Of a stretch of 64,000 nucleotides of DNA, positions 6,698 through 52,932 are shown one piece after another. The position numbers and the translations under genes are program-made. Numbering within the stretch: the stretch's first letter is position 1; each line of letters opens with the position of its first letter. The DNA lies in NCBI GenBank assembly GCA_951406725.2, contig OX597823.1:30628001-30692000 (forward strand), given 5' to 3'. The stretch comes from Octopus vulgaris. Lineage: Eukaryota. The notes beneath the pieces were generated by a model that had not been told where the DNA came from, ran no database searches, and saw nothing but the letters and a program-made list of their open reading frames with translations.

Positions 6698-6770
6698 TAT
6701 ATATATATATATAAATATATATAAATATATATATATGTGTGTGTGTATATATATATAAATATACACATAC

Positions 6771-6805
<35 letters not shown>

Positions 6806-6834
6806 AATTTACATATAGATATATATATATATAC

Positions 6835-6873
<39 letters not shown>

Positions 6874-7454
6874 CATACATAAATGCATAGACTACATATA
6901 GAATTTTACGATTCAGTTAACGTAAATTAGAATTATAAAGCAAGTACACAGACACAAACAAAGCCATGTACATTGTTTCATGTCAGACTGTCATGAGTTG
7001 GTAGTCTTTAAATATCTGTCCTTGAATCCTCTGCTTCACCATTAACAATACCACAATGCTGGCTGACGTAAGACCCTAGGCTGTCACCATGGATCGCTCG
7101 CCTCTACTTAAGCACAGATTCCACCTGTTATCTGATTAGCACTTGTTCCGTTGAGCAGTTAATCCGCTTATCTAATCAGACGGACAAATAAGGATCAGCT
7201 ATGACTAATGATTTTATTAATCATCTGATCTTGGCTTATAAAGTGACCAAAGGGTCTCCCTGACTATTGGTCCCTAACCCAACCTGCTCTTTTAAAAGGG
7301 AGTTTATTGCTTGTCTGGATTTAGATTAGCTGGAGTTTGAATTTTTTTTTTCCTTTTCTTCTCAAATTCCATAAATTCCATTGACTTAATGATTTCTGGA
7401 CATTGTGTGTGTGTGTGTAAGTTTGTACACATACATACATACATACATACATAC

Positions 7455-7491
<37 letters not shown>

Positions 7492-7494
<3 letters not shown>

Positions 7495-8317
7495 ATATAT
7501 AAACGGCAGTTTGTCTGTCTGTGTGTCTGTCAGGTTGTACCCTCACCCTGACCACGGCTTTCAACTGATTCTGATGAAACTTGACACACACATAGCCCAA
7601 TGTCATAATTCAAAACTAACGTAGCGACAATTTTGAAAAGTTCCCCCAGTTCTGAAAAAAAGTGATAAATTCGACATGAGGTCGAGAATCTAAGCTTCTT
7701 ATATGCAACACATTTTCTGTTGTAGTTTTCGCAACTTGCAATCGATTTTCACCAAACTCATGGTGAAGCTTAATGTTACCCTAAGAAAACTTAATTCTGA
7801 CGTTAGTTTTCCATGCAATACCTTACCATCAGAAAAAATCGATAAAATCATGCCATTTTGGGAAATCGCGTTCAAATTCAAGATGACATATTTTCGACAA
7901 TATCTTTCACAAATTGGCAGGAATTTTTTAAAATTCACAGCGAGCATCATGTCTGCTCCAAGGAGCTATATGGCCCTTTTTATTCCAATAGGATACTTTA
8001 TTACTGGAAAAAATCGGTTAATTAAATCATATGTGGCACACATAGCAAATCGTTTTGTGTATTAAACACAAACCGCAGACTGTCTAGGGGACGCAACTCG
8101 ACCTTTTTAACTCTCTTGGGAGGCGCAATGATGTTTTCATGTTTTCGCCCAAAGGGACAGCTAGGAACATCGTATACACAGAAGTATTCGAGTGAAGAGA
8201 AGACATTGCAACCTACACATGCGCCTTCGTTCCCTAGGGGGAAAGGACTAGATTGGGATTAGTCGTTGCCTACTAGGGGCTCTTACATACCCGGGCAACG
8301 CCGGCTTATGCTGCTAG
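7492..8317 (+). mobile_element. Non-autonomous Helitron, copy 1 (826 bp)
   Basis: 5' TC after host A (7491); 3' GC hairpin CCGGGCAACGCCGG (8291-8304) then CTAG followed by host T; no TSD; near-identical to 11860-13003. Confidence 0.9.
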
Positions 8318-8472
8318 TGTATTTATATATACACACACACACGCATACATACATGTATATGTAGCCGTATATATACATATATATATACTAAGTATACATA
8401 TATACAGCAGTATATATATATATATCATCATCATCATATGTGTGTGTGTGTGTGTGTGCTAAGCACTTTTTT

Positions 8473-8876
8473 AGGTGCAAGAGTGGGTGTGTGGTAAGTA
8501 GCTTGCTTTCCAACCACATGGTTCCGGGTTCAGTCCCCCATTGCATGGCACCTTGGGCAAGTGTCTTCTATTAGAGCCTTGTGTCAACCAGAACCTTATG
8601 GGTTGATTTAATAGACGGAAACTGAAAGAAGCTCGTCGTATGTGTATATATATGTTTTGTATATGTTTCTGTTTCTGTGTTTGTCCCCCACCATTGCTTG
8701 AGAGCCAATGTTGGTGCGTTTGTGTCCCCTAAACTTGGCAGTTCGGCAAAGGAGACCAATAGAATGAGTACTAAGGCTTACAAAGAGTAAGTCCTGTGGT
8801 TGATTTTTTTCAACTAAAGGCGGTGCTCCAGCACGGCCACAGTCAAATGACTGAAACCAGTAAAAGAATAAAAGAA
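8473..8876 (+). mobile_element. tRNA-derived SINE (family A, CORE-like body)
   Basis: Head GTGTGGTAAG..GGTTCAGTCCC, GGCACCTTGGGCAAGTG segment, tail GGCGGTGCTCCAGCA.GGCC..TGACTGAAAC; many copies in the window. Confidence 0.85.
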
Positions 8877-9395
8877 AATACCTAGAGAGAGCGAGAGACA
8901 CTCACACACACTCGCACGCAAACACACACACACACGCACACACATATATACATATATATACAAAAGATGTAGCCCAGAGAGGCCATTAGATGTACAGCAA
9001 TGTGTATCTCAATGAACAGATAATCCACTGTCACATATCTCCTCTATTGGTATGTCTTGCTGTTGGCTATTCTGGACTTATTTTTTAATCTGACTGGATG
9101 GTCATAACTTCTCTTCCTTCACCAGGGGAGGTGGGGGAGGATTTAGTAGAAAGGGACTCATTCTATTAATTTATATGGTATCAACAGCTGCTAAACTCTG
9201 ACTTTATTATATTATAGATTTAAAGAGGATTTAAATAGCTTTATCATTTAAGATATCGGAATGTAGCAGATTTAAATGTGAACGTGCACAAATATTTTGA
9301 TGTGCACGAGCCAGAACATTCGCACACATTCATGTACATTCCTTTACTGATTTCAGTCATCAGACACCGACCATACTAGAGCAATATCTTAACCT

Positions 9396-9832
9396 TACAT
9401 TATTTACATCATTTACATTTAGTGGATATTTATCCTCATTTTGTTTGTTGTTAACACAACATTTTGGCTGATATACTGGGGTTCTCATTCCTAAGGTAGT
9501 TTTCGATGTTATTATTATCATCATCATCATCATCATCATCATTGTCATCATCATTATTATTATTCAGGTCACTGCCTGGAATCGAACTCAGAATCTTGGA
9601 GTTAGTAGCCCATGCTCTTAACCAGCATGCCATACGCCCATGGGCGTATGGCATAGTGGAGGGTATATCAGCTGAAACGTGTTAACAACAAACAAGATGA
9701 GGACAAATATCTGTCAAATGTAAATAATGTAAATAATTCCTCATCTCTTAAATATAGAACTGAATAATAATAATAATAATAATGATAATGATGATTATGA
9801 TAATAATAATAATAATAATAATAATGATTATG

Positions 9833-9875
<43 letters not shown>

Positions 9876-10045
9876 TAACATCGAAAATACCTTAGGAATG
9901 AGAACCCAGGTTTGAAATTTCCCCAAGACACCTGATGAAGGCTGGAGAGTATATCAGCCGAAACGTGTTAACAACAAACAAGATGACAAATATCCGTCAA
10001 ATGTAAATAATGTACATAATTCCTCATCTCTTAAATATAGAACTG
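9396..10045. mobile_element. Family E composite: tRNA-headed, hammerhead-bearing element; inverted plus partial tandem arrangement
   Basis: Minus copy 9396-9640 head-to-head with plus segments 9641-10045; 28-bp perfect palindrome at the junction; flanked by AATATCTTAACC duplication (9383-9394, 10047-10058). Confidence 0.85.
9927..9969 (+). ncRNA. Minimal type I hammerhead ribozyme motif (Penelope-type), 3-nt-deleted subvariant
   Basis: GACAC CTGATGA A GGCTG gagagtatat CAGCC GAAAC GTGTT: intact CUGAUGA/GAAA core and helix II, but lacks 3 nt around the cleavage site relative to the 41958-42004 copy. Confidence 0.6.
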
Positions 10046-10052
10046 TAATATC

Positions 10053-10209
10053 TTAACCCTTTAGCATTCAGAATGCTCTATCAAATGTCATGCTTATTTA
10101 TTCATTTTGCACCTTCAAAATTTCAATGATGTAATTGCTTATTTTTAGAATGACATTGTAGGGTAGGTGTGAGAGATTGGATCTGGCCAGTTTAAATGCT
10201 AAAGGGTAA
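10053..10209. mobile_element. piggyBac-like TTAA MITE (TIR CCCTTTAGCA)
   Basis: TTAA-CCCTTTAGCATT ... AATGCTAAAGGG-TAA. Confidence 0.7.
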
Positions 10210-29713: not shown

Positions 29714-29860
29714 ATTATTATTTACATTTGACAGATATTTATCCTCATCTTGTTTATTGTTAACACGTTTCGGATGATATACCCTCCAGCCTTCATCAGG
29801 TGTCTTGGGGAAATTTTGAACCTGGGTTCTCATCCCTAAGGTATTTTTTGATGTTGTTGT
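29714..29860 (-). mobile_element. Family E fragment with hammerhead motif (29762-29804)
   Basis: Reverse complement reads GACAC CTGATGA A GGCTG..CATCC GAAAC GTGTT. Confidence 0.8.
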
Positions 29861-40822: not shown

Positions 40823-41201
40823 TTAACCCTTTTGTTACTAACCCGGCCGAAACCACCTGACTCTGTAGTACAAATGTCTTGTTTATGTTCCTAACACTAG
40901 CTTAATGATAACTAAGTTATTTTACTAAATTCTTTGTTATATTTAAAATTAATTGAACAGAACAGAGAGCATCTAAACTGAAATACAGTAACGAAAGGTA
41001 CATTATTTACATTTGACGGATATTTGTCCTCATCTTGTTTGTTGTTAACACAACATTTCTGCTGATATACTCGCCAGCCTTCAATAGGTATCTTGGGGAA
41101 ATTTCAAACTTGGGTTCTCATTCCTAACAAATATCCATCAAATGTAAATAATGTACATAATTCCTCATCTCCTAAATATAGAACAGTAACGAAAGGGTTA
41201 A
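40823..41201. mobile_element. Family F MITE with a family E composite (40999-41183) inserted in its TIR
   Basis: CAGTAACGAAAGG duplicated at 40986-40998 and 41184-41196. Confidence 0.85.
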
Positions 41202-41550
41202 ACAAATGAGAAATTAATCCCAAACTGGATATGTTATCACCACCTTTCCAGTTTGTGTTCCCTGAAGCTATAATCCTCACCATTCCACCCCACTTGCTCC
41301 TCACAGCATCTCAATGAAGTGAATCCAAAATAGAACAGTGTGAATCGAACACGTAATCTTTGAGTTGGTAGCTAATACTCTTATTATCTTGCACCACCAC
41401 CACCACCACCAAGATACCTGTTTCTTTTCTCATTCCAACTCATCCAGTTTTAAATTAATTTGGCTTCTACAGGTGATTCCCTTGCCTTCCTTGACAAGAG
41501 TTGATTATTAAAATTCCTATTATTTTTCTCTTCATTACATATGTAATCTT

Positions 41551-41800
41551 TACATTATTTACATTTGACAGATATTTGCCCTCATCTTGTTTGTTGTTAA
41601 CACAACGCTTCGGCTGATATATCCTCCAACCTTCATCAGGTGTCTTGGGGAAATTTCAAACCTGGGTTCTCATTCCTAAGGTATTTTTCAATGTTATTAT
41701 TATTATTATTAGTATTATCATTATTCAGGTCACTGCCTGCAATTGAACTCGGAACCTTGGGGTTAGTAGCCCATGCTCTTAACCACTACGCCATATGCTT
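41551..41800 (-). mobile_element. Family E element, nearly full length (tRNA head + (AAT)n + hammerhead)
   Basis: Reverse complement: ATATGGCGTAGTGGTTAAGAGCATGGGCTACTAACCCCAAGG.TCCGAGTTCAATT..(AAT)n..GACAC CTGATGA..GAAG CGTTGTGTT. Confidence 0.85.
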
Positions 41801-41878
41801 GTGGACTAGTTTTTGATGGAGTTTTTTCTCTATGTCTCCATTGAAGTCTAATGTTGGCTCTGTACCAATTAGATAATA

Positions 41879-42255
41879 CAGCTCTATAGTTAAGAGATGA
41901 GGAATTATGTACGTTATTTACATTTGATGGATATTTATCCTCATCTTGTTTGTTGTTAACACAACGTTTCGGCTGATATACCCTCCAGCCTTCATCAGGT
42001 TGTCTTGGGGAAATTTCGAACCTGGGTTCTCATTCCTAAGGTATTTTTTGATATTATACATCATCATCGTTTGACGTCCGTTGTCCGTGCTAGCACGGGT
42101 TGTATTATTATTGTTGTCGGCGTTATTGTTCAGGTCACTGCCTGGAATCGAACTCGGAATCTTGGGGTTAGTAGCCCATACACTTAACCACTATGCCATA
42201 TATCCATCAAATGTAAATAATCTAAATAATGTATATCTCTTAAATATAGAACTGT
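41879..42255 (-). mobile_element. Family E element, full length with an inverted 3' tail
   Basis: Minus copy 41879-42200 followed by the plus-strand 3' end (..CTTAAATATAGAACTG). Confidence 0.85.
41958..42004 (-). ncRNA. Minimal type I hammerhead ribozyme (Penelope-type, dimer-dependent helix III); best-preserved copy
   Basis: Reverse complement GACA(A)C CTGATGA A GGCTG gagggtatat CAGCC GAAA CGT T GTGTT: full core, 5-bp helix II, palindromic ACGU helix III, helix I GACAC/GTGTT with one bulged A. Confidence 0.7.
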
Positions 42256-42487
42256 ATGCAATTTTTAGTTATTCAAAAGATTTGGAAGCTTGTCGCATTA
42301 CGTATATTAGCCTCCAATTAACTATATAGTTGATTGTCCAATCTCCTGATAATAGTTGTTAGTTGAATATCTTGTTCTATTAACTATTTTATTATTTCAA
42401 TGTCTAAATTCTTCAGTTAAATGCGATACATTCAGATAAATGTAGTTTTCCTGTATATATATATATATATATATATTTTATATATAT

Positions 42488-52285: not shown

Positions 52286-52638
52286 TTAACCCTTTCATTA
52301 CCAACCCAGCTGAAACTGGCTTTGGCTCTGTAATACAAATGTCTTGTTTTTCATAAGTTTTGAATTAAAATCTTCCACAAAACCTTAGTCACAATTTATG
52401 TTCCTAACACTAGCTGAATGATAAATAAGTTATTTTACTAAATGCTTTGTTATATTTAAAGTAATTGAAATAAATACAGAGCATCTCAACAGAAATACAG
52501 TAACGAAAGGCACATTTTTTACATTTGGCAGATATTTGTCCTCATCTTGTTTGTTGTTAACACGTTTCGGCTGATATACTCTCCAACCTTCATCAGGTGT
52601 CTTGGGGAAATTTTGAACCTGGGTTCTCATTCCTAAGA

Positions 52639-52674
<36 letters not shown>

Positions 52675-52932
52675 CATTATTACTATTATTACTATTAAGG
52701 TCACTGCTTGGAATCGAACTCGGAATTTTGGGGTTAGTAGCCTGCGCTCTTAACCACTACTCAAGTACTCAAGTTCGAAATTTCCCCAAGACACCTAATG
52801 AAGGCTGGAGGGTATATCAGCCAAAACATTGTGTTAACAACAAACAAGATGAGGACAAATATCCATCGAATGTAGATAATGTACATAATTCCTCGTCTCT
52901 TAAATATAGAACTGTAGTAACGAAAAGGTTAA
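52286..52932. mobile_element. Family F MITE with a family E inverted composite (52511-52915) inserted in its TIR
   Basis: AGTAACGAAA(A)GG duplicated at 52499-52510 and 52916-52928; hammerhead motifs at ~52559-52602 (-) and 52790-52836 (+, core mutated). Confidence 0.85.

What the first reader, a model, noticed from the sequence alone, without database searches (positions are those of the whole stretch)
41879..42255. tRNA-headed non-autonomous element carrying a Penelope-type hammerhead ribozyme (retrozyme/SINE hybrid), ~7 ribozyme motifs in this window
Seen: family E has a tRNA-like head (A box TGGCGTAGTGG, arm GGG-CTACTAA-CCC, B box GAGTTCGATTC), an (AAT)n spacer, then consensus GACAC-CUGAUGA-A-GGCUG(loop)CAGCC-GAAA-CG-U-U-GUGUU and a fixed 3' end ..CTTAAATATAGAACTG. 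Motifs lie at 9927(+), 29762(-), 41047(-), 41599(-), 41958(-), 52559(-) and 52790(+). Two copies have GGUUG/CAGCC, which still pairs. Established: minimal type I hammerheads with a palindromic (ACGU) helix III that fold as dimers typify Penelope-like element terminal repeats; Schistosoma SMalpha couples a tRNA-derived Pol III promoter to a hammerhead; metazoan retrozymes give small circular RNAs. Inference: this is a Pol III-transcribed, self-cleaving, PLE-mobilised element family in a cephalopod-like genome that a repeat annotation could easily label as a plain SINE.
Basis: partly seen in the sequence, partly recalled or inferred. Interest (0 to 1): 0.85.

Follow-up and report, generated by a model that had tools for sequence, protein, structure and literature searches.

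The report
Penelope retrotransposon carrying tRNA-derived promoter

Summary
The unit is not a separate SINE or retrozyme. It is the pseudo-LTR (pLTR) of a Penelope/Poseidon-type element (PLE). In 30 of 30 loci picked on a GIY-YIG-like C-terminus, the tRNA-derived head follows the stop codon. The 'fixed 3' end' runs on into the ORF, whose family consensus (835 codons, RT plus endonuclease) starts in the unit and reads through the ribozyme. Insertions show the PLE signature: 71 of 98 have an inverted arm, 50 of these end 27-37 nt short, and 38 of 49 have target duplications of 10 nt or more. The new feature is the head. A and B boxes are kept in two subfamilies, 47 of 169 arms start at the head, copy counts jump about five-fold there, and the 2.66-kb unit has no TTTT terminator (P about 0.02). 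Pol III transcription is inferred; RNA-seq showed no start or cleavage peak. New variant of a known kind.

The parts
41551..42256 (.). whole PLE insertion: tail-bearing arm and tail-less arm, head to head
   Evidence: mapping to family consensus
42197..42256 (+). short inverted arm, body positions 118-178, with the full tail
42130..42201 (-). tRNA-derived head (best match tRNA-Arg among the classes sampled); A box 42198-42188, B box 42153-42144
42056..42129 (-). (AAT/AAC)n spacer holding a nested 3' fragment of another abundant repeat (about 42105-42060)
42031..42033 (-). predicted start codon of the PLE ORF (frameshifted in this copy by the extra A)
41958..42004 (-). minimal type I hammerhead inside the ORF frame; predicted cut between 41963 and 41962; extra A in stem I
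41877..41957 (-). 3' part of the pLTR with the proximal (body 141-151) and distal (body 176-178) ends, inferred RT start sites; the interval is the PLE tail
   Evidence: PMC11167929 for the interpretation
41806..41874 (-). 68 nt of ORF N-terminus beyond the tail, then a jump to the next pLTR
41551..41804 (-). second pLTR from the GCCCAC hairpin to body 145 (no tail); hammerhead 41599-41644 with GAAG
41540..41550 (+). left copy of probable target-site duplication (right copy 42255-42265; 9 of 11 identical)
9399..10047 (.). composite insertion of the same family (inverted arm with head, two forward bodies), about 12-nt target duplication
29717..29855 (-). single tail-less body, hammerhead lacking the cleavage nucleotide
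40998..41188 (.). head-to-head insertion (body 17-146 and 117-178), about 14-nt target duplication
52512..52916 (.). head-to-head insertion (head plus body 8-144, and body 26-178), about 13-nt target duplication

Best explanation
The unit is the terminal repeat (pLTR) of a Penelope/Poseidon-type retrotransposon, and its tRNA-derived head likely works as an internal RNA polymerase III promoter, so that RNAs predicted to start about 6 nt before the head would be copied by the element's own protein into SINE-like short insertions. Shown: the order ORF stop - head - spacer - start codon - hammerhead - tail - ORF; head-to-head arms; a tail on one arm only; target duplications of about 10-15 nt; a sharp peak of 5' ends at the head. 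Inferred from those data and from the PAc biochemistry (PMC11167929): the RT-endonuclease nicks both target strands about 12 nt apart, primes two cDNAs at two internal start sites (with and without the tail), and the two cDNAs join at their 3' ends through short homology or the GCCC-AC-GGGC hairpin. Short copies come from the same masters as ORF-bearing copies. The hammerhead is likely a real, protein-assisted ribozyme at master loci but probably not needed for insertion; cutting would separate promoter and start codon from the ORF.
For: Head directly after the ORF stop in 30 of 30 best hits to the ORF end (three are loci seen before and two are near-identical duplicates). L115 holds tail, ORF and pLTR in order; RVT_1 E 5.8e-8; the C-terminal piece aligns to the PF01541 domain of P0066, E 2e-13. 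Majority consensus gives one 835-codon frame with 57% identity over 830 residues to unnamed homologues whose N-termini carry the same ribozyme-overlap peptide. Of 98 loci picked on the tail alone, 71 have an inverted segment, 50 of these end at body 141-151, and 38 of 49 tested have a duplication of 10 nt or more against 2.6% of shuffled pairs. The tail-less arm is longer in 23, the tail arm in 21, equal in 9. Recurrent arm-specific variants (position 130 G/T in 5 pairs, reverse 0; position 132 T/A in 6 pairs, reverse 1) do not fit one cDNA folding back. For Pol III: 47 of 169 arms start within -8..+8 of the head and 21 go on into the ORF; in 27 of 36 such insertions only one arm ends there. 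Exact 21-mer counts are 850 and 806 just upstream, 4006 in the head, 5449 at the tail and 88 past it. An older subfamily differs at 12 of 76 head positions yet keeps box-compatible A and B boxes. No TTTT in the 2658-nt unit at depth 15 or more (3.05 expected, P 0.023), against 8-9 runs in a co-resident PLE ORF; 24 of 30 tRNA loci here have a run of 4 or more T within 40 nt.
Against: No direct sign of Pol III transcription or cleavage: three RNA-seq runs show family reads equally on both strands and no place where many molecules begin or end. The TTTT test is one post hoc test with modest P; GGGG is absent too, a 1.1-kb LINE piece also had none, and the older subfamily alone gives P 0.14 and is not independent. 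A weak hairpin lies exactly at the boundary, and palindromes at pLTR 5' ends occur in PLEs without tRNA parts (PMC3846280). A Pol III RNA would be a poor mRNA for an 835-residue protein. Stem I has a pairing probability of 0.02 in the pLTR context. Arms of one insertion share the N7 subfamily marker (AA 8, TT 23, discordant A/T 2), so they come from one lineage and possibly one RNA. The sample of 98 is the first 46 Mb of one contig.
Confidence: 0.6

Rival explanations
1. An ordinary Pol II-driven PLE whose pLTR captured a now silent tRNA-SINE head. The peak of 5' ends comes from a Pol II start site at the pLTR edge or from RT stalling and self-priming at the GCCC-AC-GGGC hairpin. Short copies are plain 5'-truncated insertions.
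For: TATA/Inr-like motifs and 5' palindromes are described for rotifer pLTRs (PMC3846280, passages). The protein needs a translatable RNA. Some copies run ORF - pLTR - ORF (L163), so longer read-through RNAs existed. RNA-seq shows no start peak. Short and long copies are one family.
Against: Boxes stay box-compatible in two subfamilies while other head positions change. No TTTT in 2.66 kb. The boundary lies 13-14 nt before the A box, where Pol III starts on tRNA genes (own knowledge). The hairpin is only 4-5 bp, and 27 of 36 cases are one-sided.
Confidence: 0.3
2. A separate non-autonomous SINE family (tRNA head plus borrowed PLE 3' end) with its own masters, moved in trans.
For: Head-bearing arms outnumber ORF-linked ones about 4- to 10-fold. 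The short form meets the structural SINE definition (PMC3531059, passages).
Against: The head is part of the autonomous element in 30 of 30 loci and in both subfamilies. No diagnostic difference between short and ORF-linked copies. Only 88 exact matches past the tail, with variable junctions, so no fixed short master was seen.
Confidence: 0.06
3. A retrozyme: tandem units self-cleave into monomers that circularise and are re-inserted.
For: This locus has two hammerheads in tandem, 359 nt apart; three other close tandem pairs appear. Animal retrozymes are proposed PLE derivatives (10.64898/2026.07.22.740005).
Against: Most insertions are head-to-head. Tandem junctions fall at 51 to more than 800 nt into the ORF with no fixed unit. 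Copy ends cluster at the head and the tail, not at the cleavage site (8 of 169 arms start at body 89-100). No such joint among the 15 joints listed from reads (92 more not shown).
Confidence: 0.04

Closest known systems
Penelope/Poseidon-clade EN+ PLEs, e.g. PAc from the green anole (PMC11167929) and rotifer Pen2a_Av (PMC3846280)
   Same: Single ORF of about 835 codons, RT then GIY-YIG; ORF start and hammerhead inside the pLTR; 27-37 nt tail on one arm; inverted 5'-truncated arm; target duplication; two internal ends downstream of the ribozyme.
   Different: The pLTR begins with a tRNA-derived A/B-box head directly after the stop codon; the sense strand has no TTTT; most copies start at that head. 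The rotifer pLTR was described with TATA/Inr-like motifs.
Minimal hammerheads of metazoan PLEs (PMC4209133)
   Same: [quoted passage not shown]
   Different: Helix II is 5 bp here (7-8 in the Schistosoma families described). Activity untested.
Schistosoma SMalpha / Sjalpha (as reviewed in PMC6765202)
   Same: Pol III-type promoter followed by a hammerhead in a short repeat.
   Different: Those are non-coding tandem repeats whose ribozyme cuts multimers in vitro. Here the unit is the end repeat of a coding PLE with a minimal ribozyme, mostly in inverted pairs.
TRIMp3: Cassandra, Helenus, Ajax (PMC10886601)
   Same: Small-RNA-derived Pol III promoter inside the terminal repeat of a retroelement.
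   Different: Those are non-autonomous LTR elements, and the paper states that their autonomous partners must use Pol II. Here the same repeat flanks the RT-endonuclease ORF.
Octopus tRNA-derived SINEs OK, OR1, OR2 (Ohshima and Okada 1994)
   Same: Possibly the same family as OR1. That OR1 and OR2 are tRNA-Arg-derived is recalled, not from a call; only the title was seen in reference lists, and OR2 is called a CORE SINE in PMC4758252.
   Different: Could not be compared: paper not held, no SINE database available.
Animal non-LTR retrozymes (PMC7229834; 10.64898/2026.07.22.740005)
   Same: Type I hammerhead in a unit of about 300 nt, link to PLEs.
   Different: No fixed tandem unit, minimal ribozyme, no circular RNA evidence; the preprint has no mention of tRNA or Pol III.

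Membership tests
EN+ Penelope-like element | single ORF with RT and C-terminal GIY-YIG endonuclease | tested here: met
   835-codon consensus frame; RVT_1; C-terminus aligns to a PF01541 domain, E 2e-13, but scores no Pfam hit itself
EN+ Penelope-like element | pLTR that contains the ORF start and a hammerhead | tested here: met
EN+ Penelope-like element | inverted 5'-truncated arm, 30-40 nt tail at one end, target duplication | tested here: met
   71 of 98 inverted; 50 ending 27-37 nt short; 38 of 49 with duplication of 10 nt or more
Penelope/Poseidon clade | no Zn-finger-like linker between RT and EN (present in Neptune and Nematis; PMC8557442) | tested here: met
   absent from the consensus, present in the co-resident 781-codon family
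Penelope/Poseidon clade | RT phylogeny with named references | not tested
   no clade-labelled reference sequences were available
Minimal type I hammerhead | CUGANGA and GAAA cores, helices I and II, palindromic helix III, NUH site | tested here: met
   consensus; core and helix II kept in the older subfamily; the one frequent core variant is at N7, 26 of 117 arms. Individual window copies mostly fail
Minimal type I hammerhead | self-cleavage as dimer or with protein | not testable with these tools
   RNA-seq shows no end peak; fragmentation would hide one
SINE | tRNA-derived head with A and B boxes | tested here: met
SINE | Pol III transcription | tested here: inconclusive
   indirect only: 5' end peak, boxes, no TTTT; no start peak in reads
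SINE | separate non-autonomous family moved by a partner LINE, simple-repeat 3' tail | tested here: not met
   same consensus as ORF-linked copies; fixed non-repetitive end and PLE-type junctions
Non-LTR retrozyme | head-to-tail repeats of a fixed unit, each with a hammerhead | tested here: not met
Non-LTR retrozyme | abundant monomeric linear and circular RNA | tested here: inconclusive
   standard RNA-seq only

The most novel reading that the evidence does not exclude
An autonomous, protein-coding retrotransposon that became a 2.7-kb Pol III transcription unit: it captured a tRNA promoter into its terminal repeat, purged TTTT terminators from its whole ORF, and so is its own SINE source, with each insertion built from two independently primed cDNAs and a ribozyme placed to cut promoter and start codon off the coding RNA.
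Probability: 0.3. Interest if true: 0.85.

Novelty: new variant of a known kind. Interest (0 to 1): 0.6.

Why it matters
Pol III promoters in terminal repeats are described for non-coding elements only, and PMC10886601 expects autonomous partners to use Pol II. A coding PLE with such a promoter would blur the SINE/LINE divide and show how a SINE-like burst can arise with no separate SINE family. It would also mean that part of what is annotated as SINE in octopus genomes is Penelope. The family gives a large natural data set for the unsolved PLE integration cycle: equal odds of either arm being longer and arm-specific variants favour two cDNAs over fold-back, which makes the dimer model suggested for PAc directly testable. 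The family is old (copies about 6% from consensus, no intact ORF seen among 150 listed hits), which limits direct experiments.

Tried and rejected
Rfam and ARAGORN do not detect the head or the ribozyme. A Tc1-like MITE was considered because the finding's ends look like TA-CAG..CTG-TA; rejected because arm lengths vary, one arm lacks the tail and duplications are 10-15 nt. The 781-codon GIY-YIG family from the PF01541 search is not the partner: none of 15 loci shared the unit. Excess core conservation across copies: none. Cleavage scars: deletions peak at body 90-92 (19 of 125) but also at 98-100 in short repeats, so slippage explains them as well. A headless older subfamily: L316 lacks the head, but the other old-type loci with the ORF end carry it, so this is probably a deletion. 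Metagenome relatives L189-L202 (36-50% identity) were decayed and showed no pLTR, head or hammerhead; the viral collection gave none. The run index listed no RNA holder. PDB sequence search gave only weak RT and telomerase hits. Ten literature searches found no report of a tRNA-derived or Pol III promoter in a PLE pLTR; Repbase, SINEBase, subscription papers and supplements (including the curated library of PMC13282606) were not seen and may hold this family.

Full report
Setting. The window is G000:C10:30628001-30692000 in a 2.80-Gb, 227-contig genome. Size and repeat style look octopus-like; this is my inference and I did not identify it further.

Observation. All seven motifs exist at the stated places, and four exact core matches exceed chance (0.38 expected). 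None of the seven window copies is perfect, and three lack the cleavage nucleotide. In 98 genomic loci, 34 of 111 arms covering the motif are intact. The head aligns best to tRNA-Arg (z 7.2-7.3) among Arg, Ala, Thr, Cys, Lys and Glu genes from 30 loci; other classes were not sampled.

What lies upstream. Several copies shared the sequence before the head, and it translates to a GIY-YIG-like C-terminus. All 30 best genomic hits to that segment continue, about 8 nt after the stop codon, into the head (three repeat earlier loci and two are near-identical duplicates). An older subfamily, 80-86% identical, has the head at the same place.

What lies downstream. In L115 and in the window itself (41874-41806) the 'fixed 3' end' continues into the ORF N-terminus. 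A majority consensus at depth 15 or more gives one frame of 835 codons that starts 30 nt before the hammerhead and reads through it. It has an RT domain and a C-terminus that aligns to a PF01541 domain, with no Zn-finger linker. No full-length open frame appeared among the 150 hits listed (longest 569 codons). The unit is therefore the pLTR of a Penelope/Poseidon-type element.

Insertion anatomy. I took 99 loci covering the first 100 of 5449 exact tail matches (all in the first 46 Mb of C1) and dropped one near-identical duplicate. Of 98, 71 have an inverted segment and 50 of these end at body 141-151, 27-37 nt short of the tail end. Target duplications of 10 nt or more (one mismatch allowed) were found in 38 of 49 tested, against 2.6% of 500 shuffled pairs. 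This is the PLE pattern of PMC8557442 (passages) and PMC3846280 (passages). PMC11167929 (parts 1-2 of 4 read) shows that the tail is the interval between two internal RT start sites, that both strands are cut and extended, and that the hammerhead needs protein and is dispensable for insertion in vitro. Here the tail-less arm reaches further 5' in 23 cases, the tail arm in 21 and they are equal in 9. Variants recur with fixed polarity between arms (position 130 G/T five times, position 132 T/A six times, reverses 0 and 1), while the N7 marker is shared (AA 8, TT 23, A/T discordant 2). I infer two cDNAs from two pLTR templates of one lineage, joined head to head.

Why so many short copies. Exact 21-mer counts are flat over the last 160 nt of the ORF (850, 806), rise to 4006 in the head and 5449 at the tail, and fall to 88 past it. 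Rough calibration from small samples gives about 16,000 tails, 22,000 heads and 2,000 ORF ends. In the sample, 47 of 169 arms start within -8..+8 of the head and 21 pass into the ORF; 27 of 36 such insertions have only one arm ending there. Short and ORF-linked copies have the same consensus and markers, so there is no separate SINE lineage. The boundary behaves like an RNA 5' end. The A and B boxes fit the Pol III consensus (own knowledge of the consensus) and stay compatible in the older subfamily despite 12 differences in 76 positions. The 2658-nt unit has no TTTT (3.05 expected under codon shuffling, P 0.023), while a co-resident PLE ORF has 8-9.

Against that reading. The TTTT test is post hoc and modest, GGGG is absent too, and the older subfamily gives P 0.14 over 1790 nt and is not independent. 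A 4-5 bp hairpin sits at the same boundary. Three RNA-seq runs of one study (organism A, same species label as one DNA holder) gave 6,752-10,099 family reads each, equal on both strands, with no start or end peaks; loose ends mirror the DNA junctions, as expected for copies inside long transcripts.

Ribozyme. It fits the minimal PLE hammerhead of PMC4209133 (parts 1-2 of 4 read). Helix II is predicted at 0.92 and helix I at 0.02 in the pLTR, where an alternative hairpin competes. Core and helix II are kept in the older subfamily, whose changes fall in loop II, the outer part of helix I and the flanks. The only frequent core variant is at the free N7 position. Copies decay evenly. Activity is untested. 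A retrozyme cycle is not supported: sequence past the tail ends at variable points from 51 to more than 800 nt in 30 loci.

Comparison. PLE membership is met on every structural feature tested; clade placement rests on domain order and the missing linker, not on a tree. SMalpha (review PMC6765202, passages) and TRIMp3 (PMC10886601, passages) are the nearest precedents for a Pol III promoter beside a ribozyme or inside a terminal repeat; both are non-coding. PMC7229834, PMC3531059, PMC4758252, PMC8967140 (passages), PMC13282606 (part 1 of 3 and passages) and the 2026 retrozyme preprint (parts 1-2 of 5 and passages) do not describe this arrangement in what I saw. The short form may be the OR1 SINE of 1994, which I could not read. 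Three unchecked notes of this scan describe tRNA modules in PLE-type insertions in other genomes, a hint that the pairing recurs.

Verdict. PLE pLTR identity: about 0.97. Pol III drive of the short copies: about 0.6. Whole-ORF Pol III unit: about 0.3. New variant of a known kind; interest 0.6.

Noticed in passing
L067, L072, L076-L083 (e.g. G000:C16:20835500-20841000): A second, young PLE family with many intact 781-codon ORFs and a CxxxxCxxC linker (Neptune-like); my hammerhead pattern found nothing in L076 and L080.
   Followed up: partly
window 1395, 2247, 18313, 20831, 50410, 51116, 55232 and about 42105-42060: 3' end of another abundant repeat ending in (GAT)n, probably a SINE; a fragment is nested in the spacer of the finding's copy and in L014, L019.
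   Followed up: no
window 40998-41188, 52512-52916, 9399-10047: Two insertions lie at the same position of another repeat with a TTAACCCTTT-like end, and a third next to the same motif: target preference or an old duplication.
   Followed up: no
family body positions 86-103: Deletion hot spot around the predicted cleavage site (19 of 125 arms at 90-92), mostly discordant between the two arms of one insertion; slippage or cleavage scars.
   Followed up: partly
L313, L329-L348: Older subfamily (80-86% identical) with the same head position, a longer segment before the ribozyme and a mismatch in helix I.
   Followed up: yes
proteins P0019, P0097, P0111, P0093: Unnamed homologues encode the hammerhead-overlap peptide; P0093 begins with what reads like the inverted pLTR, suggesting the same insertion anatomy in another organism.
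   Followed up: partly
L116:6400-7500: RT-coding fragment of an unrelated LINE next to a PLE copy.
   Followed up: no
G000:C1, about 7.9-9.1 Mb and 36.86 Mb (L084-L086, L287/L288): Near-identical repeated loci, probably segmental duplications or assembly duplicates.
   Followed up: no
runs X15-X20: Six runs labelled with five organisms hold 30-52% of the words of one family copy; only X19 was laid.
   Followed up: partly
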